Position numbers and translations under genes: made by a program. DNA of 64,000 nucleotides, taken from NCBI GenBank assembly GCA_043228905.1, contig JBHGNT010000008.1, forward strand, positions 8,370,001-8,434,000. Direction: 5' to 3'. Positions 15,594 through 60,384 of this stretch are shown in pieces. The stretch is from Azolla caroliniana (taxonomy: Eukaryota; Plantae; Polypodiophyta). Under the pieces are notes generated by a model, which had not been told where the DNA came from, did not search any database, and saw only the letters and a list, made by a program, of their open reading frames with translations. Numbering within the stretch: position 1 is the first letter of the stretch; every line of letters starts with the position of its first letter.

Positions 15594-16019
15594 TGTCAGG
15601 AATAGTACTAAAGCAGAGATGGAATTAGTACTAAGAGGAGTAGTACTATTAGTACTAAGAGGACGGGACTACGTAAGATTCCCGAGAGAGAGGAAGTGAG
15701 AAGAGGAGAGAGAGGGAAATAGGATGATGACAGCAGCTCTTATATTATATGAAAGATAAGTACAAATCGGCTAAGAGGCTTAAGACTGGTGTTGAACCAA
15801 TTTGGTTCAAAACAATGCCTTGTGCCTCCTTTTATAGTGTTTTTAGGAATAACCCTGAAGCTTCTAGAATGTTCCAGAGAGATCTGGAATATACATCAAT
15901 TTTCTATGATAAAGCATAAATGAAAATAATATCCTACAAGTTACAATTCATGGTCTAATGGTAAGAGCTCAACCCATGTAGCATAAGGTCATGGGTTCAA
16001 GTCTTGCCATATCATGACA
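15594..16019 (-). mobile_element. Solo LTR (426 bp) inserted in the copia B LTR
   Basis: Termini TGTCA...TGACA. TSD GGGTG (15589-15593, 16020-16024). TATA-like ctataaaagg on the minus strand (~15828-15837) followed by a CT-rich tract. Confidence 0.88.
15944..16012 (+). promoter_or_regulatory. tRNA-like Pol III internal promoter within solo LTR
   Basis: A box TGGTCTAATGG (15951-15961) and B box GGTTCAAGTCT (15994-16004), 32 nt apart. No intact cloverleaf. Confidence 0.7.
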
Positions 16020-18855
16020 GGGTGTTCACACACTTGAATATGCTAAGGGGAAGTTGAGTTTGATTCTCAACACGCCCCTTCAAACACAACATTCGGTTGC
16101 CGAAAAATTGGTTCACACTAGTCTTTAGGTCGGCTTCGAATCGACTCCGGCTTTGGCTTCGGATGGCCGACTCACTCCCATGATCATTCCGCTCTGTTTG
16201 ACTTCAGTCGGATGATTCCTTATCCATACTCCCCCTCAAGCTCGGTTGGTCGGTAATAGAAAGACCGAGGTTCGTCGTGAACTGCTACAGCTTGTCAGCT
16301 CCCAGGGCCTTCGTGAAGATGTCAATCGTCTACAGGTTCGTGTTGATGTGTTGTAGGTCGACATCTCCGGCCAGGACACACTCTCAAATAAAGTGATAAT
16401 GCACCTTAATGTGCTTAGTTTGAGCGTGGAATACTGGGTTGCGGGCTGGCTAGATGCTACTCATGTTGTCGCAATACAGGAGAATCAGATTATTGATGGG
16501 AACGCCTAGATCTTTCAAGATTCTTTTGAGCCCAATGGCTTCACATGCGGCGATGGTCGAGCCCCTATGTGCTCAACAATGCCACTATCAGCTATTTCTT
16601 ACTACTCCACGAGATGGTTCCACTGCCGAGGGAGAAGAAGAATCCGGACGTTCATCGTTTGTCGGCATTGTAGCCGGCCCAATCGACGGATGTGTACCCT
16701 TTGAGTCAAATTGGTGTGGTTGACTTGTAGAGGATGTCGAAACCCATCGTTCCACTCACATAGCGTAGCACTCGCTTAACACAATCTAGGTGAATGTTTC
16801 ACGGTGTCTGCATAAACTAGCTAAGGAGGTTGACTGGGTAGCTGAGGTCGGGTTGAGTGATGGTGAGATAGATAAGGCTTCCAACTAGCTTCCAATAGAA
16901 AGTCGGCTCACCCTCTTCTATGCTGGAATCGGTGTCTAGCCTTATATTTCGATCGAGTGGGGTAGCAACGGGCTTACACTCTATCATCCCAAACTTGAAA
17001 GAAGATTGAGGATATAATGATGTTGGGAGATCATGATGTCATTGGGAGTCTGAATTACTTCTATACCTAGAATCTAATATAGCTCCTTCATATCTGTCAT
17101 TTCGAATCGGCTGGAGAGTAGCTTCTTGGTATGTTCGATATTTGTTAAATGCTCTCTTCCAATCACCAAGTTGTCCACATAAATTATGATGAATAGCTGT
17201 CCTTTGGAGTCATTTCGGATTAACAAAGAATTTTCAAACTTGGACATTTTAAAGTCAATTTGGTGAAGATAGTGGGTTATCTTCTAATGTCATGCTCTTG
17301 GTGCCTACTTGAGACCGTAGAGAGGCTTTTTGAGTCAGCAAATAGCAGTTGGATGTGTACTCGACTCGAATATGGGTGGTTGAACCATGTACACCTACTC
17401 TTCTAATTCGCCTTGGAGAAAGGTGTTCTTCACGTCCATTTGGTGGAGGTGCCACCCTTTGGCTGCTGCAAGCGCGATCACGGTTCGAATGGTTGTCATA
17501 TTTGTCACTGGGGCAAAGGTCTCTTCGTAATCGACCATGTGTGTCTGCGCATACCCTTTTGCCACAAGTTGGGCCTTATACCGATTGACGGTGTCATCGG
17601 TAGTGTGCTTCACCTTGAATATCCATCAACATCTGATTACCTTTTGATTGGGTGAAGAGGGGACGAGATCCCATGCCTCGTTTTTGGAGAGTGCCTGCAT
17701 CTCCTCATTCATCACTTTGACCCATCGCGGGGCCTTCGTGGCTTTGGAAAAAGTTTCCAACTCTCGAACTGTTGCCACCTTCATTAGGAATGCATAGTGA
17801 TATGCCATGTAGTCATTGTAGTCGAATCAGCTGATTACATTCTTCTCTCGGTTGGAGCAACGTGGTGCCCCTAGTGTCCTCATGCTAGGCACATCCAATC
17901 CACCATACTCATTGTTGGGTGAGTAATCCAATTTATTTCCATTTGAGTCTTCCTATTAAGGCATTTTGGCCTTTCCTTTGTCTTGTTTCAGACTTGGCCA
18001 CGATGTGCTTTGGTCGCTCGATGGCTACTGTGGCCCACTCAATCTGGTTGACATTGGACTTTCTTCTTATGTGGGCCTTAGTAGATCATCCTCCTCTGAG
18101 TCTATATCGAAATCGGTTTCGATTGGGTTAGATGGAGCTAAATTGATTGTGTACCAGGATGTTGATTCGTCGAATACGACATCCCTACTCACTCGTACCT
18201 TCTTGGTAGAGGGATTGAAGCACTTATACCCATTTGTTCGAGCGAGTACCCCATGAGTATACACTTCTCTGATTTTGGATTGAGCTTTTGCCGCTTTTCA
18301 TCAGGAATATGTACAAATGCAATAGAGACAAATATCCTAACGTGGGACAAGTCCGGCTTCTTTCCATAGAACTTCTCATGGGGGGTAATATCGTGCACTC
18401 TGGATGTTGTGTAGCAATTCATTAGATAGACGGCCGTGTTGGCAACGTTAGCCCAATATGATTTTGGAAGATGTTTCTTGTTCATCATTGCCCTTGCCAC
18501 CCAAGTATATGTTGGTTCTTTCATTTGGCTACTTCGTTTTATTGAGGTGTGTGTCGGCAGGTGAACTCCCGTTGAATTCCTTCTTGTCGAAGGTATGTTG
18601 TGAAGGCATCAGAGAAATACTCCTTGCCGCCGTTCGATTGAAGGCATCAGACATGCCAATCGGTTGCCTTTTCGACTTCGTTTTTGAATTTTTGAAAGTG
18701 AGAGAACACTTCACTCTTCTACCGCATTAGGAATATCTAGGTGTGCCTAGAGAAGTCGTCGATGAACGTCACATAATATCGGCAACCTCCAAATGTTGCC
18801 GTTTGGGCTAGTCCCCATACATATGAATGCATTACATCCAGGATCCCTTTGCTCA

Positions 18856-19150: not shown

Positions 19151-19189
19151 CACGTCGCCTCTTATTGATGATAGTTATACATGCCCTCT

Positions 19190-19990: not shown

Positions 19991-19995
19991 AAAGG

Positions 19996-22372: not shown

Positions 22373-22374
22373 CT

Positions 22375-22916: not shown

Positions 22917-25900
22917 ATGGCAGCCATGATCGCAGCAAAGCTCTCTTCCCTCTCTGCTACCGCTCCCCTCAGTGAACGCAGACGTTTGCCCCCCTCTGAG
23001 AAGGCCCTCTCCTCCTCCTCCTCCTTCTCCTCCTCCTTCCCTCAGCCTAAGATATCCAAGAGCAACGCACCCCTCTCGAGGAAGCATTGTGCTGTCTCCA
23101 CCAGAGCTATGGCGAAAGAGCTTCACTTCAACAAAGATGGTGCCACCATGAAGAGGCTCCAGGTCCTTATAAATTCTGTCGTTCTTTCTTTCTCTTTCAA
23201 TGACAGGCTGTGTCAATCCGCAAGAATGGGCCTTTTTGTTTCTTGCTTCCATCCCGTTTTAAAAAATCGAGGTTTCTTTCTGCTTTCTTTCACGCCCAAG
23301 CACGAATAGTTCTCTTTCCTTCTCCTTTCCGAGTGACAGAAAATCGGATAAGAATTGCAACGTGTTTTGTTTTTCTGTCTACATCAAAGTGATGAACACG
23401 TTCCTGTTTCGTATCGTGATGAGATATCAAGTTTTTGTTGTCTATTTTTTCTACAGGCTGGAGTGGACAAACTTTCAGATCTTGTCGGTGTTACCTTAGG
23501 TCCTAAGGGGAGAAATGTTGTTCTTGAAAGCAAGTACGGAGCTCCAAAGATCGTTAATGATGGAGTTACGGTAGCTAAAGAGGTTCGTTCGCTCTTTGTT
23601 CTGATTGTTTTCCATTTTCTTCTTTGTATGGAATTTGATGCAGTTCTTCAATTTCGTGCTCCAGTTTGAGTAGGACTATAATTTATATTTGATAAGTGCC
23701 ATAGCTTGAGCTGGAGGGTATTGGTGGAAACATTTATTTTGCTTCCAAAGTGTGTAATTCATTTGAGTTAAAATATTAGCCTGTCTCGATAATTATCTTC
23801 ATTGTGTTGTCATATGTTCAGTTAGGAGATAACTTCTTTCAGTAATTTTATTAATTCCAGTCCATAAGTTTGAGTTACAAGGTAACATCTTTTGATCATT
23901 TCCTTCAGCTTTGTGTGAAGATTGAGGTTGAAGATTATAGTTTTAGTAATTTTCTTATTTTTGTGCCTACGATTGTAGCATTCTATGAGATAGAAGATGC
24001 CTTTTTAAATAAACTATTTGATTTGAGGTGAAAGTTCCTGTTGAAAATGGTGTCTGATCATTTGTGTCATTTTTGGAATACATCTTGAGGTGGAACCTCC
24101 AGGTCATGTTGTAAACCCTTTTTAGTGATTTGTCTCGTTATTTTAATATATGCTGATCTGGTATTCTCAACAACTGTTTTCGTTCATAGTTTTCCTCTCT
24201 CATTTGCTATAGGTGGAGCTGGAAGATCCTGTTGAAAACATTGGTGCAAAGCTGGTGAGGCAAGCTGCAGCCAAAACAAATGATTTGGCTGGTGATGGTA
24301 CAACCACTTCTGTTGTATTAGCTCAAGGACTTATTGCTGAAGGTGTGAAGGTACTATTCCATCCGAGATGATACTTCTTTATTTTTGAATTCATGCTGAA
24401 AGAGTAACATTGTAGGTGATGAGGAACTGCTAGAAAGTGGTAGCATTCATGCAATAGTTCGAGCGCTTGGAAAATGTTGAATAGTCAGACATGCTGATGA
24501 ATCCGTGATTACTTATTGGTGCAGGTTATTGCTGCTGGAGCTAATCCTATCCAGATTACAAGGGGGATTGAGAAGACTGTGAAGGCTCTTGTGGAGGAAT
24601 TGAAAAAAATGTCCAAAGATGTAAGCTTCTTGCTAAAGCTGGTTTAGTGTTGCCCTTCCATTTTGCTATCAGAGATGAATACGTGAACTGTTTCTGGCCT
24701 TCTGTGGCATAGGTTGAGGACAGTGAACTAGCTGATGTGGCTGCTGTTAGCGCTGGAAACAATTATGAAGTTGGTAACATGATCGCTGAGGCTATGAGCA
24801 AAGTTGGACGGAAAGGAGTTGTTACCCTTGAGGAAGGGAGAAGTGCAGAGAATAGTCTCACTGTTGTGGAAGGAATGCAATTTGATCGTGGTTATATCTC
24901 TCCCTATTTTGTGACTGACACTGAGAAGATGATAATCGAGTATGCAAATTGCAAAGTCAGTAAGAAATAGCTTGGCAATAATTTTTTGGAGTGCACCATC
25001 AATGGAATTTGTGATTAAGACCTTTATCACTTGTATTTTCAGCTCTTCCTTGTTGACAAAAAGATTACTACAGCCAGAGATATCATCGGGATTTTGGAAG
25101 ATGCTATTCGTGGTGGATATCCCCTCTTGATCATTGCTGAAGATATTGAGCAGGAAGCACTTGCCACCCTTGTTGTAAATAAACTGAGGGGTAGCCTGAA
25201 AATTGCTGCATTAAAAGCACCTGGATTCGGAGAAAGGAAAAGCCAGTATTTGGATGACATTGCCATATTGACTGGAGGTAAGCAGTCATACATAGTTGCT
25301 GTGTTGGTGTTCTCACGTACAATGGGTGTGCTGTATTGTCGATATTCCTACTGTGGCCTAAACATGAGGTGTTAAATATGTTAGGAACCGTGATCAGAGA
25401 TGAGGTAGGACTCTCTTTGGATAAGGTTGGGAGGGAAGTTCTGGGAACTGCAGCGAAAGTAGTGCTTACGAAAGATGCAACAACCATTGTAGGCGATGGT
25501 AGTACTCAAGTAGAAGTTACTAAACGTGTGGCTCAGATCAAGAGTTTGATAGAAGTAAGCTTATAAGTGAACTGATAAACTTTGAATTTAGATTTTTGAA
25601 AATAGATAAATGTTGTGTTCTGTATTTGTTATTTATTTCTTAATATTTGGAGAATGCAGGTTGCGGAGCAAGAGTATGAGAAGGAAAAGCTTAACGAAAG
25701 AATTGCTAAGCTGTCAGGAGGAGTTGCAATACTTCAGGTGATATAAGAATCTTAGGAAGTTGATCAGATTGTACACTGCTTTATGTGGGTACATTTAATT
25801 TTTGTTTAATAAGCCAAATTTGTATGTTTATTGCTATATCTTGCCATCCATTGTTGAATGCTTCATGTGGATGATGCTTGACAAACCTATCCATTGTCAT

Positions 25901-27034
25901 GACAGGTTGGTGCCCAAACTGAGACAGAATTGAAGGAGAAGAAGCTCAGAGTTGAGGATGCTTTGAATGCCACGAAGGTGTGTTGAATTTACCTTTGGAA
26001 TATGTAATCTGCGTTGACCATGCCTTTTCTCTGTGATGGTATTTCCTCTTTGGACTGATCCTGTATAATATAAACCCAAATTTAATACCTGATATGCATA
26101 CAGGCTGCTGTTGAGGAGGGTATTGTTGTAGGAGGAGGATCTGCATTACTAAGATTAGCTTCAAAGGTTGACGCAATTAAGGAAACTCTTGATAACTATG
26201 AGCAACAGGTGTGAGTTATTTTTAAATTAGTAGCTTAAATTGTGTTTAGAGAGTGCTATGCTGAGTACATAATATTGATGCAGGTTGGAGCTGATATTGT
26301 GAAGAGGGCCCTGAGTTACCCATTGAAGCTTATTGCGAAGAATGCTGGTGTAAATGGCAGTGTGGTAGTTGAGAAGGTTCTTTCAAATGACAATCCTAAG
26401 TATGGTTATAATGCTGCTACTGGAAAATATGAAGACCTTGTGGCCGCTGGGATCATTGACCCAACAAAGGTACTTGTCAAAACATAATGGTATTATTTGT
26501 ACACATAGTGTTGGGTTTTAACTGTAACTGTACTTGGCCATTAGCCCTATTCGATGGTTAGAGATAGGCGTAGGGAAATGTTCCATGTGATATGCATCAG
26601 TATTTTTAAAGCCATATAAACATGAACCTGAAAAGTGGTGTGCACATCATAGTTATTATTTAAGTTGAAGATCTATTTATTGCATCGACAGGTTTGAGAG
26701 TATAAGCTAGAACTGAAGTTTCATAGTATATTATATGGCAGCTTCTTGTGTTAAAATTGTGTATGCTATTCTTTTCATTCAGGTTGTTAGGTGCTGCTTG
26801 GAGCATGCTGCATCTGTGGCAAAAACATTCCTGACATGTGATGTCGTGGTGGTTGAAATCAAAGAACCTGAAGCAGCTGCTCCTGCTGGTAACCCAATGG
26901 ATAACTCTGGTAAGTAATAGAGTTGTTTGTCCAAAAGTGCAATCATTACTTTTGTATATTTGCTGAAATTGAATGAATGTATGATCTGTAAATGTTGACA
27001 TGTGACTAATGCTTTTGCAGGCTATGGTTACTAA
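22917..27034 (+). CDS. CPN60B: Chloroplast chaperonin 60 subunit beta, ~13 exons
   Basis: Transit peptide then [53 protein letters not shown]. Beta-type C-terminus PMDNSG|YGY* (last exon 27021-27034). GT-AG introns. Confidence 0.96.
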
Positions 27035-29344
27035 ACATGAATTGATAGAATAGGAAAACTTGCCCAATCAGTGGAACCAGATTTATTGCATTAACCTCTG
27101 GATGTGAGTTTTGTAGCCCTACCATTTCTAGCTTGCGGAATTTGATCTATGACTTTTTAAAATTGAGAAGAGAAGAAACCCATTTGGATGAAAAATGACT
27201 TCAAGAATTCTTTCTTATTATATATGCTGTAATTCCCATTTATGATATTGTGGTGTCCCTCACAATATTGATAAAGGCGGTGTAACAATGCCTTGAGTTC
27301 TTAGCACTGTAGCAATTCTCATAGTTTTGTAATGTTAAAGACATGGCAAAATCTTCTGCTCATCATCATATGCAAAAATGTGCTTGCTTATTGTGTGTTC
27401 TCAGTCAGTGAATATGTGAATTGACATTGGTTCAAAGGGACTTATAATTTATTGAAATTTAGAGGGGAGAAACTAATTGATAGACCCAAGACATACATAC
27501 TATAGTCACAGAGACTTGACGATAGTAGTCATAGTATGCTAGGCTTGATAATCGTTAAATTTGATTATTTCAGAATTTTTTTATGTTTTAGGAAATTGAT
27601 AAATTGCTACCTTAAATACCTTATACCAACTACTTGGAATTGGTGTAGTGGATCTCAATCCATGATGTCCTTAATAAATTGTAGTACAGGAACTTAGCTC
27701 CTTGTGAGGATCCATGAGTCTACTTCTTGTGAGAAGCATTGGATCTATGAATATATTCGAAAGGAAATTGGAATCATCAAAATTGCTATTGGGGAAACGG
27801 AAGTACTTGAAAGAAAAATGGTTGAAAAATGTCATCCTTAGGATAGAGTATTCTACAAAGTGTCAATTCATTCAATAGATTGATTAAATTAATAACTTGG
27901 CAAAATCGATAGATTGACTAAATCAATAACTTGGCAAAATTGATGATCATTGTTTTGAAATGATAAGCCTTTGAAATCAACGAGATGTTTGAAAATGATG
28001 GACTATGGTGCCGGAATTGTTGAGTTGCCATTTGTCAGGTGATTGCTAGGCCTTTTTCAAAACTATGTTCCGTGCTATAGGGTTTCAGCCTTCTTTGCCA
28101 ACTGCTAGGCTCAAGTTTCAACATCGATCCTCTAGGTTTCACCCACTTTGTCCACCTTGCACTTACCTTTACCTTGTACACATACCCCGTCATTCCTAAA
28201 CTACCCCCCAACCTAGTTCCTCAAAAGAAAATAAGATAATTATATTCTTAAAATGCCCTTCTTGCTTTCCTCCTTACGGTCTACATGTGTTCCCTAAAGT
28301 TATACCTTGCGATTCACATTCCTTAAACGCTTAAAATTCCTGAAATCCATACTTTCCAAAGTCCTTACCCTTTAAACTTTTAAGTCACAAAATATAAACA
28401 CTTAAATAATTTCACATTCACACACTTATAATTACACAAACACTTCCACATTCACACACACACACATAATTACACATTAATTTAATGTATATTAGCACAA
28501 GAAAATTCTCATATACAAACATGCACAATTACATTCTATATGATCATCAATCAATCCTGTTTACCTATAAACACACGTACACAAAGGCTTTACATTCACA
28601 AGCGTAACTAAGTGCTGTCACCCCAATAAATGAATTTTCTAAGAGTGTGTTCATGTGCTAGCTTGTTGACTTCAATAGGGATTATGAATGCTACATTATG
28701 TGAACCAATCTTACATGGTTCAAAGACCTTGGTGCTTTTGCTCCCATTTTCACCTACACATGTGAATATCCGCAACAACGTCACCCTTTGAGATTGTCTT
28801 TCCTCTACTACCAACTTAGCCCCCTGGTAATGTCCCTTTAGTCTAATTGCCTTTGGTCTCTATGCTCATTGTGTTGTAATCATTGTTTTGCCATTGACCA
28901 CAACAACATCCCTTTAGCCCTTCCATGCATCCCGAATGAGATATGACCATGCCTTGAAGGTCGATGACCAAAGCATGTTGTATCTATGATCCCAAGTACT
29001 GTGACGAAGATGATGTCAAGGTGTAGCTTATACCCTTTCCAATGACTTGACAAGTGAAGTGTCCCAACACCCTTTGTCTCATGAACACAAATGTCACTTA
29101 GATTGCCGAATTCAGTTAATTGCTAAATGGCATGGCCATCAATTGGTGCGATCACTATCCGCCTAACCATTTTTAAACCTTCAATTGAGTGCAATATGAC
29201 TTCATGTACATGGTCTTGTGACACATCTCTTTGAAGGAGACACACTCTTCTAGGCAACATAGTCAAGAGATCCAATCAAGTGTTGTTCGAATTTGTAATC
29301 TCAATTCTAGCAACGACTCTAGAAGCTACCTTTATGATTGCATG

Positions 29345-29410
29345 CCATCCCATCCATCCATCACATCCATCACATACATACATACATACATACATACATA
29401 CATACATACA

Positions 29411-29441
<31 letters not shown>

Positions 29442-39119: not shown

Positions 39120-42100
39120 CGTGGCGGGCGTTGTTGGGGTCGTGAGTTGGGGTGGCTTGGCCCGTCTTCTCCACCAAGATGTGAAATGCTCAAGATGTGA
39201 AATGCTCTCAAGAATAGCCCCCTTTTCATTATGTCTCAAGTTACATTTTATAGACTCTCTCTTAGCGTGGAGGGTGTTCTCCCGCTCCAATTAGCTCTAC
39301 TAATAATGGGGCTTGGTGGGGGCCTAGTTTGGGTGTGGTGCATGAGGCTTGGTAGGGGCCTAATTTGGGTGTGGTCTATGTGTGGTGCATGGGGCTTGGT
39401 AGGGGCCTAATCTAGGTGTGGTCCATGTGACCACCACAATATGATCATTTACGTGTGTTTGGGTGTAAATGCTTTGTACATATACCTAAAGATGAACGGT
39501 CTAAATTAGATGTTAAATCTAAAGAATGTATTTTTATTGGTTATGGCCAAGATGAGTTTGGTTACAGATGTTATGACCCAATAGAAAGGAGGCTTATTCG
39601 AAGTCGTGATGTGGTATTCGTTGAGGATCAAACTATCGAAGATATTGAGAAGGTCAAAGAATCTAACACTCAAGAAGATGGCGGGCTTATTGATTTTGAC
39701 CCGATTCCTACGACTGAAGATGCTACATATGGAGATGCTTCCCAACAAGACGAAAACCGTGAGGATGTTCATGAACCAGGTATTATAAATAATAGGGTTG
39801 AAGCTAATCATGATGATATTTTACCTCAAACAAGTTTTGAGTGGGGGGAGCAAACTTCCTTACAAGAGGTAGTCAATGAACAACCTAGAAGGTCTACTAG
39901 AGAACGAAAACCATCTGTAAGGTATCCTAGTTCAGATTATGTTTTAATCTTTGACGAAGGGGAGCCTGAAAGTTATTATGATGTTTTAAATCATAAAGAT
40001 AAGGATGATTGGATAAAAGCCATGCACGATGAAATGAACTCATTAAAGAAAAATAATACCTTTAATTTAGTAGAACTTCCTAAGGGAAGAAAAGTTTTGA
40101 AAAATAAATGGGTGTTTAAGTTAAAACAAGGTGATGGTAACCTTGTAAAACATAAGGCTCGTTTAGTCGTAAAAGGTTTCGGCCAAAAGAAAGGTATTGA
40201 TTTCGATGAAATTTTCTCACTAGTTGTGAAAATGAGTTCTATTCGAGTTGTTTTAGGTTTGGCAGCCACTTTAAATCTTGAGATTGAGCAGCTCGATGTA
40301 AAGACAACTTTCTTGCATGGAGACTTGAAGGAAGAGATCTACATGGAACAACTGGAGGGTTTCGAAGAGAAAGGAAAGGAGCATATGGTATGCAAGCTGA
40401 GGAAAAGTCTTTACGGCCTAAAACAAGCACCGAGACAATGGTATAGAAGGTTCAATTCATTTGTGGCAAGTCAAGACTACACCAAGACTAATGGAGATCA
40501 TTGTGTGTATGTTAAGCATTTTTCTGAAGGTAATTTTATAATTCTTTTATTGTATGTCGATGATATGCTAATTGTAGGACAAGATGTAGGAAATATCCAC
40601 AAGTTAAAGGTGGATCTATCTAAGGCCTTTGACATGAAAGATCTAGGTCATGCTAAGCATATTTTAGGCATGAAAATTACTCGCAATAGGGAATGTGGAA
40701 AGTTGTGGCTTTCTCAAGAAAAATACATAGAACGAGTATTAGAAAGGTTTAATATGCATAATGCAAAACCAGTAAGTACCCCCCTTGCTAGCCATTTTAA
40801 ATTATGTAGAAAAGATTGTCCACATACCGAGCAAGAGAAAGAAGAGATGTCTTCAATTCCTTACTCTTTAGCGATTGGTTCGTTGATGTATGCTATGGTT
40901 AGCACAAGGCCAGATATTGCCCATGCCGTTAGTGTTGTAAGTAGATATCTCTCCAATCCGGGTAAGTCTCATTGGGATGCCATAAAATGGATCTTTCAAT
41001 ATTTAAGAGGTACATCAAAATTATGTTTATGTTTTGGAGATTCTAAAGAAACTCTTGAAGGTTTTTTAGATTCAGATATGGTAGGAGATCTTGATGGGAG
41101 AAAATCTACTTCGGCTTACTTATTTACATTTGCAGGGGGAGCCGTGTCATGGCAATCTAAGTTGCAAAAATGTGTTGCTTTGTCTACAACAGAAGCGGAA
41201 TATATTGCAGCCACTGAAGCCGCCAAAGAGATGCTATGGTTGAAAAGGTTTGTTTTAGATTTGGGTTTAAGTCAACTAACTTATGTGATATTTTGTGGCA
41301 GCCAAAGTTCAATAGATCTAAGCAAGAATTCGATGTACCATTCTCGTATGAAACATATTGATGTAAGGTATCATTGGTTGTGCTCGGCAATTGAAGATCA
41401 ACTTCTACAACTCAAGAAAATTCACACAGATGAAATGTTGCCGACATGTTGACGAAGGTAGTCTCTAAAGAAAAACTTGAGCTATGTGTCAAGCTGGCTA
41501 GAATGAACAGAAACTAAGTGATTCAATGGAATCCTCTCCTATGTGGCCAGAGGGGGAGATTGTTAGGTTTTTTCTGTCCACATTAATAAGTAAATAAAAT
41601 GGGCCTTGGACGCCCAACACTTGTATTTTTCAAAATAGTGTGAAAGGGGTTCACACAAGAAGACGTTACATATCTACACTATGTAACACATTCTTTTTGA
41701 GTGTGTTAAAAAGGGAAAAACGAGCATTTCTCTGTTGAAACAGATTTCAAAGAGCACATACTCTCTTTCTTAGCTAATTCCTTCAGTCTTTCTAAAGTAC
41801 ACCAACACACTCAGACATCCGGACATCGCCGCCTCCGTCATCAGCCACGTGTTGTGAGTTTTGGTGGTTTTTTTTGCGTTCCTTTTTGTTGAGTTTTTAT
41901 TTGTTGAGGGAACATCATATTCCTCGGTTGCTCATAGTACTCTAACTTGTTTAGAGTAGAACTTTGGTGTATCAGTTTTATATTAATAGTGAATTAGTTT
42001 TGGACTAGGTCCCGTGGTTTTTACCTCTTTGCGGGTTTTCCACGTTAAAAATATGTGGTGTATTGTGTATTGATTTGTTGTGTATCTTTCTTGTTTTCTC

Positions 42101-42166
42101 TTTAAATCTTGCACAACATATTTCCTGTTTTACATAAGTGTTTAAGTGCTACTAAGTTTCGGAACA

Positions 42167-43167: not shown

Positions 43168-46100
43168 TACGTATATACATATACATATATATTCCACAAG
43201 CATCTCCTCAAATGAGGTGCAAGTCGAGTTAGGAGGTGGTTGCCAATATGCGCGACAGAGAAGATTCGATGCTTGCACTGTGATGTCTTGAGGGACTCAA
43301 ATGCTGATTGTTGCAAGAATTGTGGCCGCATCTTGCCGTCATCTGCAGATGAGCCATAAACATGGATTGAGTGGTTGTTTAGGAACATTGCTTTAAGATG
43401 TTTAGTTTAGGAACTTTAGTTTAGTCAATTTCAAATGACTGGATTTGTTTGGTTTTGCGAACCATTGTTATTGGGTTTACGAATCAAGTATGTTTTAAGT
43501 TGTATGTTTCAAGTATGTTTTAAGTTGAATTCTGGGTGTTAGGTTAAGTGTCTGTATTTTATGAACTTTTATATTTTATGTTTTAAGATTGAAAAGAATG
43601 GCGTGTGGAAGCAATATAGGAAACCGAACAATAGAAAACGCAGGTTTAATGGAAAGCTTAGGTTTGCATAGTACACACGGGAGAGACAGAGAGAGAGAGT
43701 AAACACAAGAACTTAATTCAAAAATAATACTCAATCTGTACATCGTGTGTGTTCAATGAACACTTTTATACAAGTCCTTTTCGGACTAACAGAAGTACTG
43801 ATAGTACTTCAATGCTCATTGAGGAGCCCCTACACTAACTCCCAAATATATTCCTTACGGAATATCTTTCCGATGGCCTCCCGGTTTCTGCATCGATCCG
43901 GCCTTCCTACGCACCGGTCTGCGTACCGGTTTCCAACTGATCCGGCCTAACCGATCGGTCCCAACCGATCTGGTCCTCGGCTTGCTCAGCCGATCCGGCC
44001 GATGTTGAGCTTGTCTCTCAACACTCCCCCTCAAGCTCAACTTGAGGCTCTTCCGGATCTTCCGGATCACCACTTCGGTTCCTCCTGGCTCCACGCCTCA
44101 CTCGCGCTCCTCGACCTGTTCGACTCCGCGCGCTTTGACCCTTCCGGTCGGCTTGTCTGCTCCCACAGCCCTTCACAGCTCCCTCGCTGTCGCGGTGTTG
44201 GCGCTTCTCTTGATGCCTTCTTTTCTGCTTGGCCCTCGGTTGATTCAGTGTATCCGAATCAAACATCCGAACCGACTCGGCTACCTCCGATCGGTTTTCG
44301 CTCTCGTCTGAGTTGGTTGTCTCCAACTCGTCTTCAGTCTTCTCGCCCTTAACGGCTTCATCTCCCCCATGCTTGGTTGACTTCGGCTCTTCCTTTCGGC
44401 TGCTCCCCTTATGTCTGCTTCCGGAATCTTTCGCGGGTCTGCCCTCAGCTTCTTTAGTCGATCCGAAATCGAATTCATCATCCGACTCGGCGTCGCGGTC
44501 TTCTCTCCCCCTCCCGAGGTCATTCAGGACATCTCTCCCTCTCAAGTTTGGCACGTCGAGGTGACGCAACCCATGTGCAACCAAGAATTGCCGCAACTTG
44601 TCCAGTCCAAGAGGCTTGGTGAAGATGTCGGCGGTCTGCCGATCTGTCGGAACATACTAAAGTTCGACCTCACCGGAGAGAACACGCTCACAGACGAAAT
44701 AGTAGTGCAACTCAATGTGCTTAGTCCGGGCGTGCAAAACGGGGTTCTTGGCGAGCTGGATGTTGCTGAGGTTGTCGCAATAGATAGTCGTTGGATCGGA
44801 CACCACCACATGAAGATCCTTAAGTATCCGCTTCAACCATATGGCTTCGCATGTCGCGACAACTGCTCCTCTATACTCACCTTCGGTGCTCGACAATGCA
44901 AATGTCAGCTGCTTCTTACTGCTCCACGCTATCGCAACACTCCCAAGAGAGAACGCGTATCCGGATGTGGATCGGCGATCGGCAGCGTTGCCAGCCCAAT
45001 CAACATCGGTGTGGACGACCAACTGCGAGGCTGTACCGGTCTGATATAGTAGTCCCCGGTCCTTAGTGCCGATTACGTACCGCAGTACGCGTTGCGCACA
45101 TTGAAGGTGCTCCTCGGTAGGTCGCGCCATGAACTGACTGATCACCCCGACCGGATAATTGAGATCGGGTCGGGTGATTGTCAAGTAGATAAGGCTTCCG
45201 ACAATTTGTCAGAACCTCGTCAGGTCGCATACCTTTCCGGAATTGGGGCGAAGTTTGACGGTTCTATCCAGAGGAGTTGAGACGGACTTACAGTCTGTCA
45301 TCCCGAATTTGAAGAGCATATTTAGCGCGTAATGACATTGGCTGATCAGTATGCCTTTGGGGGTGCAGATCACTTCGATCCCGAGGAAGTAATGAAGGTC
45401 CCCCAGATCCTTCATGTCGAATGATGCCGCAAGCTAGAGCTTCACGCGGTCGATTTCACCTAGGTCGGTGCCAGTGATGACCAAGTCATCAACATATAGT
45501 AAAATGTTGACCGGACCGAGTCGACCTTTCCGGATGAACAGGGAAGAGTCTGATTTTGATGTTGCAAAGCCCATCTGACACAGTTGCTGCGTGATCTTCG
45601 CGTTCCAAGCACGCGGGGCTTGCTTCAGTCCGTAAAGGAACTTCTTCAATTGGCACATTGCCGACGTGTTCGTTCCGGAGTGAAATCCGGGGGGTTGTAC
45701 CATGTACACCTGTTCCTCAAGGTCACCTTGCATGAACGCATTCTTTACATCCATCTGATGTAAGTGTTACCCCTTTGCCGCAGCTACCGCGAGCCAAACA
45801 CAGACGTTCGTCATCTTTGCGACCGACGCAAACGTCTCATCGTAGTCGATGCCGTGTTTCTGCGCGTAGCCTTTTTGCCACTAACCGGGCCTTGTATCGA
45901 TTGACTGAGCCGTCGGTGTTGTACTTGACCTTGTACACCCACCTACATCTGATCGGCTTCACACCCTTCGGTGCGTCAACCAGGTCCCAGGTCTCATTTT
46001 CCGCCAATGCGTGCATCTCTTCCTCCATCGCGGTGCGCCAATTCGCGTCCTTACCCGCTTATGCGTAGCTCTCTAGCTCAAGCACTTCCGCTACACGGGT

Positions 46101-47894
46101 CATGTACGCATAATGATGCGCCATGTACTCGTTGTATCCGAACGACACAACTGGGTTCTTCTGGCGGGTAGATCGGCGTAATCAGTCATTAGCCGATGTT
46201 GAGGTCTTCTCGACCGACATGGACTTCACTCTTGAAGACCCATCACCGCTGCCCTCGAAGTCGGACCCGCGTCGGTATGACTCGTTCCTATCCGTGCCGT
46301 AATCCGACACGTTCTTCTTCCCTTTTTCCTGGCGCGTAAGCCGTCTCCTTGGGTTCCTGCGCGGGGAATGCACGACCCAGTCTCCACTACTTGCCGGCTC
46401 TCCATGGGACTGGTCGAACCGACTCGGTCGTTCATTCGGTCCACTTAACCGAAACGAAATCAGACTCTCTTTGCAGGTCCCGATTTCAGGCTCATCCGGA
46501 GGCATCTCGGCCTCGCTGACCTCATCGTCAGAAATCGGATTGGAGGTGAGGTCCGGAGTCGGAGGCAAGTACCAGGACGCGGATTTGTCAAACACAACGT
46601 CGCGGCTCACGCGCGCTTGTTTGGTGCGCAGGTTATAACACTTATAACTCTCCTGCTCGTCCGAATAACCGACCAAGATACATTTCTCGGCCTTTGCATC
46701 CAGCTTCCTCCGTTTCTCTTTCGGCACATGCACATACGCAATGCTACCGAAAACTCGTAAGTGTCGCAAGTTCGGCTTCGTTCCGAAATATAGCTCATGC
46801 GCTGACACTTTGTCTCCGATCCGGTTCTAGATGTACACTGCGGTTCGTACCGCCTCGGCCCAATAGAACTTGGGCAAGCTTTTTTCTTCCAGCATTGCCT
46901 GCGCCGCTTCCACAACCGACCGATTTTTCCTCTCGGCCACGCCGTTTTGCTCCGGCGTGTATCTACAACTGAATTCACACCGAATTCCCATATGTTGTAG
47001 ATAACCATTGAATTGACCGAAAAAGTATTCTTTTCCGCCATCCGATCGCAGGCACTTGATCTTCCTTCCTATTTCCGTTTCCACGAACCCTTTGAGGTCC
47101 CGGAAACAGTCGAAGACTTCGCTCTTCCTCTCAATGAGGTAGATCCACGTGTGCCGCGTGTAGTTGTCGATGAAGGAGACGAAATATCGGCTCCCGCCAA
47201 GACTAACGTTTTGTGCCGGCCCCCACACATCGGAGTGTATCAAGTCGAGCTTGTTCCGGTTCCGGTTACGCTCATTGGGGAAGGGAAGTCGGTGTTGCTT
47301 CCCAAGCTGGCAGGCTTCACAAATTTGTGCCTTCCGGCCACTAAATTTGGGCAATCCGAACACCACCTGTTTCGATTGCAGGTCCTGAAGCCGTTGATAG
47401 TTGACGTGGCCTATCCGCTTGTGCCATAAGTCGATGTCCGACTCGACTTTTTGTCCCTTCGCGAACATTGTGATGCCACCGTCAATAGAGTCGAGGATGA
47501 ACATCCTCCCATCTTCGTGCCCTTGCGCAATAACACGACCTTCTTCCTCAATGAAGCACCCGAGGTGTGTAAACCAAACTTGCATCCCCTGGTCAACAAT
47601 CTGCCAGACTGACACCAAATTCTTCGTGATTGTCGGGATGTGTAACACGTTCATAAGTTTCCCTTTCTGCCCGACATGGCTCAAGGGAACTTCACCAACA
47701 TTCGCGATCGGATGCGGAGTGTTGTCTCCGGTTGCGACTACTCCTGGTTGCGTCGGTTTCTCAAGGTATGAGAACCACTCCTCGTGGCACGTTGTCGTAG
47801 TGTATTTCGTACACTACGTGAAAAAGTAAAAATAATATAACTGATTTAATTACATATAAATAAATAAAATAATATATCAAGATATTTATCACAT

Positions 47895-47965
47895 GCATAG
47901 GGCAGGATTCAAACCCTATACCTCCACGTAGCCAAACCTCAACTTTACCATTATGCTACCTTATC
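47895..47965 (-). promoter_or_regulatory. tRNA-like Pol III internal promoter in 5' LTR (second copy at ~50524-50594)
   Basis: A box TAGCATAATGG (47958-47948) and B box GGTTTGAATCC (47915-47905), 32 nt apart. T-runs downstream. Confidence 0.7.
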
Positions 47966-48590
47966 TTTAGTGTTCTATAAATAGATTTAATAAGTATAAT
48001 TGCTTTATTTACGCCTACCTTTATTAAAAGGTAAATCATGCATTTTTAGAGTGCGTGAATAGAAAAACGCAAGCAACTAAAAAGTGACTCATGCACATCT
48101 AGCGTGCATGAGCACTATATTTAGCAAATAAAAGTAGCAAATAAAAGCAAGGATTAGAAAAGCATCACATGCACATTTAGTGTGCATGAACATATTAGAA
48201 AAAAAGCATGTAGCTATGCTTAGTCTCTCCCATCACTACATAAGGATGGGGAGCACAATGTAATAGAGGTGTGAAATATTTGGAAATTGGATATATTTCC
48301 GAAAACACCAACCGATTAATATAATCGTGGGATTCACGAAAATAATATAATCTATACTTGTGGGATTCACAAGTTTCTTATATCTTTCTTTCAATCTAAA
48401 TACATATTCTTATCTAAATATTGATTAATCGAATAAAATACACTCGTGGGATTCACGAAATTTCTATCTCTCTTTCTAATAATCTATTTATTACTAGCCT
48501 CATCTCATATTCTTCTTTCTCCTAGTCCAAAACCTCGGCGGTTCCCACCCGACTCACGCAACGATCCGGAGCCGAAAGGCACGACACAGT

Positions 48591-48608
48591 TGGTGAACCC
48601 GACGTGAA
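48591..48608 (+). promoter_or_regulatory. Primer binding site, tRNA-Trp
   Basis: TGGTGAACCCGACGTGAA is complementary to the plant cytosolic tRNA-Trp 3' end (..TTCACGTCGGGTTCACCA, recalled sequence). Confidence 0.85.
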
Positions 48609-48624
48609 GGCGGGTGGTAAGGAG

Positions 48625-50469
48625 ATGGAGAATCAACAAGAAGCGATGAATATGATGATGATGATGGTTGAGCGGATGCAACAAGAACAACGCGCGATGA
48701 CGGAGATGAAGGCGGTAGTAGAGCGGCTTGTGCGACGAAATGGGGAATTCAACGGAAATGATGTGTCACACTATCTACGTGACTACAAAGGGGAGATGAT
48801 GCGATGTGGGATACCGGAAGGATTACAAGTGATATCCTTCAGTCGGGTAGCCACGGATGAGTTACAAGAAAGAATCTACAAGATACGGCAACAAAATCCA
48901 ACATGGGGGTCCTTCGAAGAAGCTTTACGAGAGGCATATGATTACAAGAGATCGAAGGGAAAAGATCGGCGAGAATTCGACGAATGGGTGGCATCGGAGA
49001 AGACCCACCGAAGTGCAACACAAGCATTCCTAGAGTTCGAGCATCGTCTTGCTCAACTCTCGGAGCGGGAACAACGATTGGTGGGAGAAGATAAAGTCCT
49101 AATGTTCGTAAAATCGATCGATCGAAAAGAAAGGATGGACATCGGGATCGAACTTGAAGACGATGAAGGTACGAATGGTCTTACCGAAGATTGGGCCGAA
49201 GTCCAAAGGGTATGCCGGAGACATGATGAGAGGAAGATGAGAATCTTGTCAACGACATGGCCAATGAAGGATGGTCGATTGAAGACAAACGATGGAGCCG
49301 ATATGAAGGCCGAAATACAACATGATGGTCCGACGGAAGAGGGTGTAAAACAAGCTACCCTCTTGTCTTGCGAAAGAACAACGACGAAGGATAAGGCCGA
49401 TAACCCAAGTGTAGAAGAAGATTTCGGATTACAAGTGTCCGAAACATCGGGTGAAAAAGGGGTAAGCATAATTGATGCAGTGAAAGAGAGCAAGGAGGAC
49501 TTGATTGAGGAGGTCACCATGAAAGATGACATCGAATCGAAGGTGGCTATGGACGAATCAATGGCGGATGGCCATATCGAGATTTCTCCACCGCTGATTC
49601 CAGAGACTCCGGCGGTTGCGTTCGAAAGGCAACGTGAGACCGAAGAGACGGAAGGTGGTGGAGAGAAAACAAAGGTCGAAGCCGATTCATACGACGGAGA
49701 GATAGCCGAGAAGGAGGCTATGGTTGAAATGACAGAGGATGATAATACCGAGGATTCCTACCCACTAATTCTAGAGACTTCGGCAGTTGTGTCCGAGAAC
49801 CAACGTGAGACCGGAGAGACGGGAGGTGGCAGCAAGAAAGGTAAAGTCGGAAGCCGGTTTGGATGGAAGGTGATCCGGACGGGATTCCGATCCGAAAGAA
49901 AGCCGAACCGGGTAAAAGAGGATTCGACCGAAAGTCGACCCGAAAGAAAGCCGAACCGAAAGGAAGAGAATTCGGCCGAAAGACGACACAAACGAAAGCC
50001 GAACTGGGCGAATGAGGATTCGGCCGAAAGACGACCCAAAAGAAAGCCGACCCGAAAAGGGGTCGACTCGGTCAAAACCGATCGACCGAGTCTAACTTGG
50101 CCGAACGCGAATATGGATGGAAGCCGACCTAGCCGAAAGTTGATCGGACAAGAGCGATCCGGAAAAAAGTCAAGGTTGATGAAGACAAGAAAGAGGCCAG
50201 TAAAAGACACTACCACGAATGACAAGGGCCAAGAATATGACGAGAGAGAACAAAGAATATGGTGGATCGGATGGCGACAATGGTTCGGGTGGAAAGAATG
50301 GGTCTACTCAAAATGGAGAGACAAAGTTGACATAGCGGGACAAACGGAGGATGAAGGGGAGACAACGAGCATCGGCAACTTCGGCACATACCGGAGGATG
50401 TGCGGGTTCGGAGGGGGCGAGTGTCGTAGTGTATTTCGTACACTACGTGAAAAAGTAAAAATAATATAA
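48625..50469 (+). CDS. Gag-like protein with long repetitive charged tail (~614 aa)
   Basis: Uninterrupted ORF from ATG just after the PBS into the 3' LTR. Capsid-like N-terminus FNGNDVSHYLRDY...WGSFEEALREAY, then acidic repeats, basic 16-aa repeats and a Trp-rich end. Confidence 0.75.
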   Translation: MENQQEAMNMMMMMVERMQQEQRAMTEMKAVVERLVRRNGEFNGNDVSHYLRDYKGEMMRCGIPEGLQVISFSRVATDELQERIYKIRQQNPTWGSFEEALREAYDYKRSKGKDRREFDEWVASEKTHRSATQAFLEFEHRLAQLSEREQRLVGEDKVLMFVKSIDRKERMDIGIELEDDEGTNGLTEDWAEVQRVCRRHDERKMRILSTTWPMKDGRLKTNDGADMKAEIQHDGPTEEGVKQATLLSCERTTTKDKADNPSVEEDFGLQVSETSGEKGVSIIDAVKESKEDLIEEVTMKDDIESKVAMDESMADGHIEISPPLIPETPAVAFERQRETEETEGGGEKTKVEADSYDGEIAEKEAMVEMTEDDNTEDSYPLILETSAVVSENQRETGETGGGSKKGKVGSRFGWKVIRTGFRSERKPNRVKEDSTESRPERKPNRKEENSAERRHKRKPNWANEDSAERRPKRKPTRKGVDSVKTDRPSLTWPNANMDGSRPSRKLIGQERSGKKSRLMKTRKRPVKDTTTNDKGQEYDEREQRIWWIGWRQWFGWKEWVYSKWRDKVDIAGQTEDEGETTSIGNFGTYRRMCGFGGGECRSVFRTLREKVKII

Positions 50470-53265
50470 CTGATTTAATTACATATAAATAAATAAAATA
50501 ATATATCAAGATATTTATCACATGCATAGGGCAGGATTCAAACCCTGTACCTCCACGTAGCCAAACCTCAACTTTACCATTATGCTACCTTATCTTTAGT
50601 GTTTTATAAATAGATTTAATAAGTATAATTGCTTTATTTACGCCTACCTTTATTAAAAGGTAAATCATGCATTTTTAGAGTGCGTGAATAGAAAAACGCA
50701 AGCAACTAAAAAGTGACTCATGCACATCTAGCGTGCATGAGCACTATATTTAGCAAATAAAAGTAGCAAATAAAAGCAAGGATTAGAAAAGCATCACATG
50801 CACATTTAGTGTGCATGAACATATTAGAAAAAAAGCATGTAGCTATGCTTAGTCTCTCCCATCACTACATAAGGATGGGGAGCACAATGTAATAGAGGTG
50901 TGAAATATTTGGAAATTGGATATATTTCCGAAAACACCAACCGATTAATATAATCGTGGGATTCACGAAAATAATATAATCTATACTTGTGGGATTCACA
51001 AGTTTCTTATATCTTTCTTTCAATCTAAATACATATTCTTATCTAAATATTGATTAATCGAATAAAATACACTCGTGGGATTCACGAAATTTCTATCTCT
51101 CTTTCTAATAATCTATTTATTACTAGCCTCATCTCATATTCTTCTTTCTCCTAGTCCAAAACCTCGGCGGTTCCCACCCGACTCACGCAACGATCTGGAG
51201 CCGAAAGGCACGACAACGTCATGTGGTGTGACGCGCCGGAGTCGACGTATCACACCTCCTCCGACTTCGGGGTGATCTTCTTCATTGAGTTTGCTTCGTG
51301 TCTCATCACGAAGACTGACCCTTTTCCGGCTTCTCCGGATCCTTCGGCATACTGTGATCGTTGCCGATTTCCTTTGTTGGTCTGTCCGGAACCTGTTCCA
51401 GACCCGGTTCTCTCCGAATCGGCGCGCTTTTTCCAGCACTCGCTCTCCCTGGCCTTTCTTGCCACAATACCAGCATTTCGCGGGGGATTTCCCTTGCTGG
51501 TTCTCGTCGCCTCGACTCCCCCTGTTTCCGGAGGGTCCGAAATTGTTGTCGGCATCACTTCGGTGCCTTCTTCCTTGATCCCGTCGGTCGCCTCCATTGC
51601 ATACCGACTCGCCTCATCCGCCACGACCACGGGGCCTCTCTCCCTCCATGTACAACATCTTGTTGTCGGCATGCGTGCTTGTCAACGTACCCACGTGGTT
51701 CTCCTCTACAAGGAGCATCGACTGTAAGTCGAAAAAGGACGGCGTATTCTCCCGTGTACACACAACAATTCGGAACACTCCGAACTTTGACGCCAAACCC
51801 TCGAGACAGACCTGGACCATCTCGTTTTCCTCGATGTTCACATCGATGGAAGCTAAGGAGTCGCATATGTCCTTGATCTTCGAGGTATAGTCAGCCACCG
51901 ACAAATCGCGTTGTCGTAGGTTGCTCAACTCTTGTCGGAGCTGAAGCTTCCTGGCTGTGGTGCTCACGGTGAATATCTTCTTCAGATTTTCCCACGCACC
52001 CTTCGGCATTTTTGCATCCTGAACGTAGCTTAATAGTTGGTCGCCCACACAAGACGCAAAACAGTACAACACTCTGCTCGCCGATTGTTCCCACGCCGGG
52101 AAGTCTTTGTGTGTCGAATCGAGTGATGTGTCATTTGCTCCATCGACATAGCTCCAGTAACCGTGTCCGAGCAGGTACTGGTGCATCTTGTAGGACCAAG
52201 ATGCGTAGTTGGTTCTGTTGAGCTTCTCCGTCGGAAGCGAGCTAGCCATTCCTCTGTCCATCGGTTTTCTTGTTCTTCTTCGTTGGTTTTTCCTACAAGC
52301 AAAGTCTACTGTAGAGGTTCTCAACCCTCGCGCTCTGATACCATGAAAAGAATGGCGTGCGGAAGCAATATAGGAAACCAAACAACAGAAAACGCAGGTT
52401 TAATGGAAAGTTTAGGTTTGCATAGTACGCACGGGAGAGACAGAGAGAGAGTAAACACAAGAACTTAATTCAAAAATAATACTCGATCTATACATCGTGT
52501 GTGTTCAATGAACACTTTTATACAAGTCCTTTTCGGACTGACAGAAGTACTATGACAATACTTCAATGCTCATTGAGGAGCCCCTACACTAACTCCCAAA
52601 TATATTCCTTGTGGAATATCTTTCCAATGGCCTCCCGGTTTCCGCACCAATCCGGCCTTCCTACGCACCGGTCTGCGTACCAGTTTCCAACCGATCGGTC
52701 CCAACCGATCCGGTCCTCGGCTTGCTCAGCCGATCCGGCCGATGTTGAGCTTGTCTCTCAACAAAGATGATTTTTGTTGTAAAGACTAAGTTTAAGTATG
52801 GGAAAGTTTGTCGATTTTGGAAGTTTTAATGTTTTAGTTTGTGGTTGTTTGATTTGTTATTTGAAGTTTTAAGTTTGAAGCATACACTTATTAGAAGATT
52901 TTGGGTGGAAATGGTACATTTGGTTGGGCAAGCTACAACGGTTGGGTGACCTGCAACAATCAAAGTTGGGCAACCTTTGACAGCTTTTTCTTTCGCGCGT
53001 TCTTTCTTATCCAAATCAGACGATGCAGATCGCGTAAATCGGACAGTGCAGATCGCACGCGCCATCAGCTGAGCGACCTGCACCGTCTGTGGCCGCGATT
53101 CCCTCACCAACCCTATTATGGTTTGGTAATGGATATACATGAGCGACACACACATACATAACATACATAACATAACATACATAACATACATACATCCAAA
53201 CTAGTCAAGTCAACAGTCGTATGTAACTGTCATTTTTTTGGTTTGTATTTTTGAATCTCTTCATC

Positions 53266-57687: not shown

Positions 57688-60384
<2,697 letters not shown>

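What the first reader, a model, noticed from the sequence alone, without database searches (positions are those of the whole stretch)
15944..50594. Two unrelated LTR families carry an antisense tRNA-like Pol III cassette near the LTR 5' end
Seen: the solo LTR 15594-16019 has TGGTCTAATGG-N32-GGTTCAAGTCT (15951-16004). Both LTRs of the gag-only element have TAGCATAATGG-N32-GGTTTGAATCC (47958-47905; 50587-50534). The LTRs are otherwise dissimilar and have different TSD lengths (5 vs 4 bp). In both, the cassette lies in U3, is antisense to the LTR and points outward (solo-LTR orientation inferred from its TATA). Known: these match the tRNA type-2 A/B-box consensus and spacing; Cassandra TRIMs carry a 5S Pol III promoter in their LTRs; TFIIIC-bound B boxes can act as chromatin barriers. 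Inference: a tRNA-based counterpart of Cassandra, in which LTRs recruit TFIIIC/Pol III as an insulator against silencing or to make a small RNA.
Basis: partly seen in the sequence, partly recalled or inferred. Interest (0 to 1): 0.85.

Follow-up and report, generated by a model that had tools for sequence, protein, structure and literature searches.

The report
Backwards tRNA promoters in fern retrotransposons
Two unrelated jumping-gene families, likely from a fern, carry a back-to-front remnant of a tRNA gene at the outer edge of their terminal repeats, and in the family that could be tested its promoter-critical bases change less than the DNA around them, so it likely still binds the host's tRNA-gene factor and may shield the element's own promoter.

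Summary
Three A-box/32-nt/B-box cassettes lie where stated, 3 seen against 0.005 expected. They are tRNA-derived but not tRNA genes. The solo LTR belongs to an autonomous, self-priming chromovirus (Tcn1-like); the other to a gag-only Phygy-like Gypsy. Both cassettes are antisense, in U3, pointing outward. The cassette is family-wide, not a stray SINE: 31 of 31 chromovirus copies that reach the LTR end keep the B-box segment and 28 the A-box segment. In that family the 11 invariant box bases vary about a third as much as matched U3 sites (P about 0.002-0.07 by test), while degenerate box bases vary freely. Against function: the second family's B box has a decayed core C in about half of read depth and in both LTRs of this recent copy. 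No RNA or ChIP data were available. The 'tRNA counterpart of Cassandra' is already published (Helenus, 2024), but Helenus are tiny non-coding TRIMs, sense-oriented in the examples seen. The chromovirus cassette also folds into a long hairpin. Earlier scan notes report similar LTR tRNA relics in fungal DNA. Verdict: new variant of a known kind; TFIIIC-site role likely but unproven.

The parts
15594..16019 (-). Solo LTR (family 1) of a Tcn1-like chromovirus; 5' (U3) end at 16019; TSD GGGTG; nested in the 3' LTR of a Copia element
   Evidence: polypurine tract beyond 16019 and self-priming site before 15594 in family copies; integrase+chromodomain; full pol P0018 99% identical to L004 ORF
15951..15961 (+). 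A box of cassette 1 (antisense to LTR)
   Evidence: family variants fall mainly on degenerate positions
15994..16004 (+). B box of cassette 1, 15 nt from the LTR end
   Evidence: segment present in 31 of 31 copies that reach the LTR end
15958..16010 (+). Long imperfect inverted repeat pairing the A-box half with the B-box half (about 20 bp stem)
   Evidence: z -5.8; median z -3.35 in 30 copies, upstream control median -2.2; pair table
15830..15837 (-). Candidate Pol II TATA box of family 1 LTR, back to back with the cassette about 115 nt away
   Evidence: sequence; used as the cassette-independent search anchor
47793..48586 (+). 5' LTR (794 bp) of gag-only Phygy-like Gypsy element (family 2); TSD ACGT
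47905..47958 (-). Cassette 2 (A box 47958-47948, B box 47915-47905 with T at C56), followed inside the LTR by T4 at 35 nt and T5 at 72 nt
47976..47983 (+). Candidate Pol II TATA box of family 2 LTR, 18 nt from the A box, back to back
   Evidence: sequence; use not tested
48591..48606 (+). Primer-binding site; tRNA-Trp assignment is recalled, not tested
   Evidence: sequence
48526..50469 (+). 647-codon gag-like ORF, no pol; runs through the PPT into the 3' LTR
   Evidence: no Pfam hit
50410..50421 (+). Polypurine tract
   Evidence: sequence
50422..51215 (+). 3' LTR of family 2 element
50534..50587 (-). Cassette 3 (copy of cassette 2, also T at C56)

Best explanation
Two separate Gypsy lineages carry a tRNA-derived A-box/B-box module antisense in U3 as a fixed part of the LTR, and in the chromovirus family it is likely kept as a binding site for the Pol III factor TFIIIC that would act on local chromatin rather than make the element's RNA. 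Shown: presence, position, orientation, family-wide fixation, and lower variation at invariant box bases. Inferred: each lineage captured a tRNA or tRNA-SINE head once, and reverse transcription then copied it into every LTR. Only the antisense orientation is likely tolerated, because a sense copy would send Pol III across the Pol II promoter and put a tRNA-like fold in the genomic RNA. Inferred and untested: TFIIIC bound at the outer edge of the 5' LTR, between host flank and TATA box, holds back neighbouring heterochromatin or keeps the promoter open. That would suit a chromodomain-bearing element, which is thought to insert into heterochromatin. Some outward Pol III transcription may be a by-product. 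In the Phygy-like family the module is partly relaxed.
For: Chance excluded. Gap-free alignment of the cassette core to a host tRNA-Arg gene in L013, with identity concentrated in the boxes. Copies were collected with a TATA-side anchor outside the cassette: of 49 matches, 31 reach the LTR end, all 31 have the B segment and 28 the A segment. Parsimony on 30 sequences: 0 internal-branch changes at 11 invariant box sites against about 4-5 expected from context-matched sites, P 0.006-0.012; 8-11 changes at the 11 degenerate box sites. Tree-free test on 32 sequences: minor-allele fraction 0.035 at invariant sites against 0.115 expected, P 0.002; degenerate sites 0.155; non-box hairpin-stem sites 0.085, P 0.11, so the constraint follows the promoter consensus more than the hairpin. 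In runs of organisms C and D, laid depth is concentrated at the TATA region and the B-box half; in organism D the family 2 B-box side is a local depth peak. A family 2 relative (31 contigs) keeps the A box and the spacer length while the spacer sequence is mostly replaced (table 7, compared by eye). Five other LTR-type stretches and two unassigned repeats in the window lack the module, with 5 or more mismatches.
Against: No transcript, ChIP or methylation data. Only 16 of 31 family 1 copies match both boxes strictly (A 22, B 23). Whole boxes are not less variable than flanks: sites with shared variants 3/11 and 4/11 against 18/50 upstream. Dropping the two most divergent copies weakens the parsimony test to P 0.05-0.07, and 4-11 of 115 shifted patterns also give zero; 5 of 102 upstream 11-nt windows are as conserved. 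Sites were treated as independent. The contigs may be assembly mosaics: none of 7 non-PPT loci with both LTR ends found shows a TSD. In family 2, about half of the laid depth has T at C56 in all four runs, and both LTRs of this recent copy have it, so a copy without the canonical B box still transposed. The B box of family 1 lies 15 nt from the integrase attachment end, which could explain its cross-species depth. Orientation is 2 of 2 only.
Confidence: 0.48

Rival explanations
1. Neutral passenger: a tRNA or SINE head was captured once in each lineage's founder and hitch-hiked to fixation, with antisense orientation simply the tolerated one.
For: C56T at about 50% in family 2 and in both LTRs of a recent copy; only 16 of 31 family 1 copies fully match; Kojima notes that 'not a few' Repbase LTRs hold tRNA-like sequence (PMC10886601); an earlier unchecked note read a fungal case this way (e1-9852194).
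Against: Invariant box bases are more conserved than matched sites while degenerate ones vary; spacing stays 32-33 nt in most copies that keep both boxes.
Confidence: 0.27
2. The module is a real Pol III gene making a small RNA: a hairpin in family 1 (pre-miRNA-like or a Dicer decoy, as in foamy-virus LTR cassettes) and a roughly 100-140 nt RNA in family 2.
For: Family 1 hairpin z -5.8 in the window, z <= -3 in 18 of 30 copies, lower energy on the tRNA-sense strand in 25 of 30; divergent copy L002 keeps 17 of 20 pairs with two double-sided changes; family 2 has T4 and T5 runs inside the LTR; precedent in PMC3993851.
Against: Family 1 has no terminator at the hairpin base (first T4 519 nt away in the window; 42-1195 nt in 14 of 17 locus matches, 0 nt in two ambiguous ones, none in one). 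Non-box stem sites are not significantly conserved. A nearby U3 stretch also folds (median z -2.2), so this U3 is palindrome-rich. Family 2 lacks the hairpin (z -1.9, -0.65).
Confidence: 0.15
3. In family 1 the selected thing is the inverted repeat next to the PPT and attachment site (plus-strand priming, packaging or cDNA-end structure), and box conservation is a by-product.
For: 8 of the 11 invariant bases lie in or at the stem; the hairpin starts about 10 nt from the LTR end.
Against: It folds worse on the genomic-RNA strand in 25 of 30 copies; non-box stem sites vary at near-flank rate; family 2 has boxes but no such hairpin.
Confidence: 0.07
4. Landing pad: the boxes attract tRNA-gene-targeting retrotransposons, as an earlier unchecked note proposes for a fungal chromovirus (e1-10420520).
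For: Only the analogy; L032 and L048 break roughly 76-79 nt upstream of the A box (read by eye).
Against: All three window LTRs are uninterrupted; the six broken copies break at different places and the new sequence does not start with an LTR-type TG.
Confidence: 0.03

Closest known systems
Helenus / TRIMp3 (Kojima 2024, PMC10886601; parts 1-5 of 6, searched passages and supplement passages read)
   Same: tRNA-derived sequence with conserved A and B boxes fixed in LTRs; not a functional tRNA; proposed origin by SINE insertion into an LTR; solo LTRs with 5-bp TSD; one plant case (Selaginella).
   Different: Helenus are 311-1263 bp non-coding TRIMs; the tRNA part reads sense in the four consensus pairs whose internal part I could see and is proposed to drive the element's RNA. 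Here it is antisense, at the U3 edge of TATA-bearing LTRs of an autonomous chromovirus and a 3.4-kb gag-coding element.
Cassandra TRIM (as described in PMC10886601; original paper not read)
   Same: Pol III internal promoter carried in LTRs of a plant element.
   Different: 5S-derived (type 1), non-coding TRIM, transcribed from the 5S part of the 5' LTR into that of the 3' LTR.
Foamy-virus LTR Pol III miRNA cassettes (PMC3993851, passages read; PMC7693620, listing only)
   Same: A/B-box Pol III units with hairpins inside the LTR of a Pol II-driven, protein-coding retroelement.
   Different: Animal retroviruses; terminator at the hairpin base and proven small RNAs. Family 1 has no such terminator, and RNA is untested.
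TFIIIC/B-box and tDNA chromatin barriers of yeasts (Noma 2006, Simms 2008; seen only as references in PMC13578239, content recalled)
   Same: B-box or A+B-box site at a border between silent chromatin and a promoter.
   Different: Host-encoded fixed sites; not shown in plants or within LTRs in anything I read.
Tcn1 chromoviruses and Phygy non-chromoviruses (Neumann 2019, PMC6317226, passages and one supplement row; PMC2864245, passages)
   Same: Family 1: chromodomain, self-priming, non-seed plant. Family 2: 4-bp NCGN TSD.
   Different: No tRNA-like LTR cassette is mentioned in the passages read; Phygy was described from a moss only.

Membership tests
Helenus/TRIMp3 | tRNA-derived A/B-box sequence inside the LTR | tested here: met
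Helenus/TRIMp3 | TRIM: short (about 1 kb), non-coding element | tested here: not met
   family 1 LTR abuts an integrase-chromodomain ORF and a full pol exists; family 2 element is 3.4 kb with a 647-codon ORF
Helenus/TRIMp3 | Pol III promoter oriented to transcribe the element itself | tested here: not met
   antisense and outward in both families; Helenus examples read sense
Ordinary SINE insertion | Present in a minority of LTR copies, with precise empty sites | tested here: not met
   31 of 31 keep the B segment; listed joints that skip parts are single low-depth contigs and none excises the cassette cleanly (joint list cut)
Ordinary SINE insertion | Free copies outside LTRs with own TSD and tail | tested here: inconclusive
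   none in the window or 84.5 kb of loci, but no whole genome was held; family 2 has a T-rich tail-like stretch
tRNA gene | Cloverleaf recognised by ARAGORN or Rfam | tested here: not met
Tcn1 chromovirus (family 1) | Integrase with chromodomain | tested here: met
   PF00385 in L004 and L041
Tcn1 chromovirus (family 1) | Self-priming site instead of a tRNA PBS | tested here: met
   loose ends before 15594 and L043 flank are complementary to the LTR stretch downstream of the TATA box
Tcn1 chromovirus (family 1) | RT/RH/INT phylogeny within Tcn1 | not tested
   no named Tcn1 references in hand; named hits were fungal, fish, amphibian and algal Gypsy proteins
Phygy (family 2) | 4-bp NCGN target-site duplication | tested here: met
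   ACGT against supplement row
Phygy (family 2) | tRNA-Trp PBS | tested here: inconclusive
   PBS present at 48591; Trp identity is recalled only
Phygy (family 2) | pol phylogeny | not testable with these tools
   element has no pol; no other family 2 copy could be fetched
Foamy-virus-type Pol III hairpin gene | Hairpin holding the A/B boxes | tested here: met
   family 1 only
Foamy-virus-type Pol III hairpin gene | T-run terminator at the hairpin base | tested here: not met
TFIIIC barrier element | TFIIIC occupancy and block of silencing | not testable with these tools
   needs ChIP and reporter assays

The most novel reading that the evidence does not exclude
Protein-coding plant LTR retrotransposons have repeatedly captured tRNA promoters back to front at the U3 edge and use host TFIIIC as a portable chromatin boundary, letting a heterochromatin-seeking chromovirus stay transcribable and scattering very many TFIIIC sites, or sources of Pol III hairpin RNA, across fern genomes.
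Probability: 0.3. Interest if true: 0.8.

Novelty: new variant of a known kind. Interest (0 to 1): 0.52.

Why it matters
If TFIIIC binds these sites, it offers a testable answer to how chromoviruses that insert into heterochromatin are still expressed. It would extend Pol III promoter capture from tiny TRIMs to autonomous plant elements with a non-transcriptional use, and make a very abundant repeat a source of mobile boundary elements. If the module is a passenger, it is an ordinary captured tRNA relic, worth knowing mainly for repeat and tRNA annotation.

Tried and rejected
No whole genome was held, so a genome-wide LTR survey was impossible. Run search listed no RNA holder; this is no evidence on expression. 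All laid runs were contigs, so depth is not copy number, and the variant, joint and loose-end tables were cut. Family 2 copies were not found in viral or prokaryote collections or in the 48 loci; chromovirus relatives were not found in viral contigs. ARAGORN at lowered thresholds gave only noise; Rfam gave no tRNA hit. RNAalifold on 27 sequences gave a weak consensus with no double-sided change in its 11 pairs. An IQ-TREE run failed and was replaced by FastTree plus parsimony. Rows dropped: L006 and L009 (large deletions) from tree and folding tests; L002 and L020 in one sensitivity run; 13 matches ending at contig ends and 5 broken copies from the alignment. A recalled remark on high tRNA-gene counts in fern genomes was not found in PMC6786969 main text or the supplement hits shown; its supplementary discussion may not be among the files held. 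My first guess of a moss host was dropped. The same-genome notes on a tRNA-Arg end replacing the PPT concern another lineage; both families here have a PPT.
Full report
Observation. The three cassettes are present at 15951-16004 (+), 47958-47905 (-) and 50587-50534 (-), each with 32 nt between the boxes. They are the only such hits in the window. In 200 Markov shuffles the mean count was 0.225 with loose spacing, 0.005 with 31-34 nt, and 0 when an AGGT variable-loop word was also required, which all three have. ARAGORN and Rfam call no tRNA there, so these are tRNA-derived relics, not genes. Their core aligns without internal gaps, bar one D-loop base, to a real tRNA-Arg gene found in locus L013, with identity concentrated in the boxes. 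The box consensus motifs are recalled; that TFIIIC recognises A and B boxes is stated in PMC13578239 (passages).

Host and elements. A host gene beside one family 1 copy (L041) is closest to a fern protein (71%, against 59% liverwort and 55% lycophyte), so the host is likely a fern. The solo LTR (426 bp, TSD GGGTG) sits inside a Copia LTR. Contigs laid on it continue past 16019 into a polypurine tract on the minus strand, and before 15594 into a site complementary to the LTR's own sequence just downstream of its TATA box (L043). Loci L004 and L041 show an integrase-chromodomain ORF ending at that tract, and a 1158-aa pol 99% identical to the L004 ORF exists (P0018). This is an autonomous, likely self-priming chromovirus, as Neumann et al. 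describe for Tcn1 (PMC6317226, passages). The second element (47793-51215) has 794-bp LTRs differing at 3 sites, TSD ACGT, a PBS, a PPT and a gag-like ORF only. The 4-bp NCGN TSD matches Phygy; no pol was available to confirm it. In both, the cassette is antisense, in U3, facing out.

Family-wide or stray insertion. I collected family 1 copies with a 20-mer at the TATA box, outside the cassette: 48 loci, 49 matches. Thirteen end too early, five are broken, and 31 reach the LTR 5' end. All 31 have the B-box segment, 28 the A-box segment, and 16 match both boxes strictly. In the laid runs, listed joints that skip part of either cassette are single contigs of depth about 50-60 or less against 10^4-10^6, and none excises it cleanly. 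No free-standing copy was seen in the window or in 84.5 kb of loci. An ordinary minority SINE insertion is therefore rejected, though a founder SINE or tRNA capture remains the likely origin. Five other LTR-type stretches and two unassigned repeats in the window lack the module.

Constraint. Taken whole, the boxes are not less variable than flanking U3. Split by consensus role, they are. On a tree of 30 sequences the 11 invariant box bases show 0 internal-branch changes against about 4-5 expected from context-matched sites (P 0.006-0.012), and the 11 degenerate bases show 8-11; without the two most divergent copies P is 0.05-0.07. A tree-free test gives minor-allele fractions of 0.035 (invariant; expected 0.115, P 0.002), 0.155 (degenerate) and 0.085 (non-box hairpin stem, P 0.11). 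Limits: small sample, sites treated as independent, and possible assembly mosaics, since none of 7 non-PPT loci with both LTR ends found shows a TSD. In other organisms' runs, depth falls over most of U5/R but stays at the TATA region and B-box half; that half also adjoins the attachment end. Family 2 is weaker: about half the depth has T at C56 in four runs, and this recent copy has it in both LTRs, so the canonical B box was not needed for its move. That C56 is critical for TFIIIC binding is recalled.

An unexpected feature. The family 1 cassette folds into one long hairpin joining its A half to its B half (z -5.8 in the window; z <= -3 in 18 of 30 copies). Divergent L002 keeps 17 of 20 pairs with two double-sided changes. 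But another U3 stretch also folds (median z -2.2), there is no terminator at its base, and family 2 lacks it while having T4 and T5 runs inside the LTR. The feature shared by both families is the box pair, its spacing, orientation and U3 position.

Mechanism. An antisense, outward promoter cannot make the element's RNA, so it does not work like Cassandra or as proposed for Helenus. I judge it most likely (0.48) a retained TFIIIC site acting on chromatin at the LTR's outer edge, back to back with the Pol II TATA. This fits an element whose chromodomain is thought to steer it to heterochromatin (PMC7466625, passages). Binding and barrier action are inferred. Rivals: neutral passenger (0.27), small-RNA gene like foamy-virus LTR cassettes (0.15; PMC3993851), replication hairpin (0.07), landing pad (0.03). 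The orientation match is weak evidence: 2 of 2, and a sense copy would likely be purged anyway.

Novelty. tRNA-derived LTR promoters are in print: Helenus, named the twin of Cassandra (PMC10886601). That paper also says not a few Repbase LTRs hold tRNA-like sequence but analysed only TRIMs. The present case fails two Helenus criteria (size and coding; orientation). My searches (open-access library only) listed no paper on antisense A/B modules in autonomous plant LTRs; Repbase annotations and closed papers were not seen. Earlier unchecked notes of this scan describe similar LTR tRNA relics in fungal DNA, which suggests the pattern recurs but is not independent support. Verdict: real, family-wide, a new variant of a known kind, function plausible but unproven.

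Noticed in passing
window 48526-50469: The gag-like ORF runs through the PPT and ends inside the 3' LTR; relatives P0008-P0010 end with the same C-terminal peptide, so this read-through is a family trait. It also holds a 48-bp tandem repeat at 49888-50077.
   Followed up: partly
window 47976-47983: A strong TATA-like word lies only 18 nt from the family 2 A box, back to back; TFIIIB placed by the cassette would overlap the likely Pol II start, hinting at promoter interference.
   Followed up: no
window 15790-15815 and 15860-15890: Family 1 LTR holds two further palindromes, one at the likely transcription start and self-priming target.
   Followed up: partly
window 32093-42166 and 34640-39440: A Gypsy element with 245-bp LTRs (99% alike) is nested, in opposite orientation, in a Copia element; neither has the cassette.
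   Followed up: partly
window 43590-52763: The gag-only element is inserted into the integrase region of a minus-strand Copia element.
   Followed up: partly
window 13993-15378: Non-LTR-type reverse transcriptase fragment (RVT_1) between two Copia elements.
   Followed up: no
window 22918-27035, 58159-59451, 5038-5571: Host genes: a multi-exon plastid chaperonin-60 beta-like gene, an actin gene, and a first exon with a transit-peptide-like start; names are recalled from the translations.
   Followed up: no
L002 896-986; L020 about 1330-1420: Two divergent family 1 copies keep a longer tRNA-like 3' end after the B box; L002 has a perfect T stem and a Thr(TGT)-like loop by eye, a lead to the donor tRNA.
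   Followed up: partly
L013 1944-2019 (-): A tRNA-Arg(TCT) gene about 0.9 kb from a family 1 LTR.
   Followed up: partly
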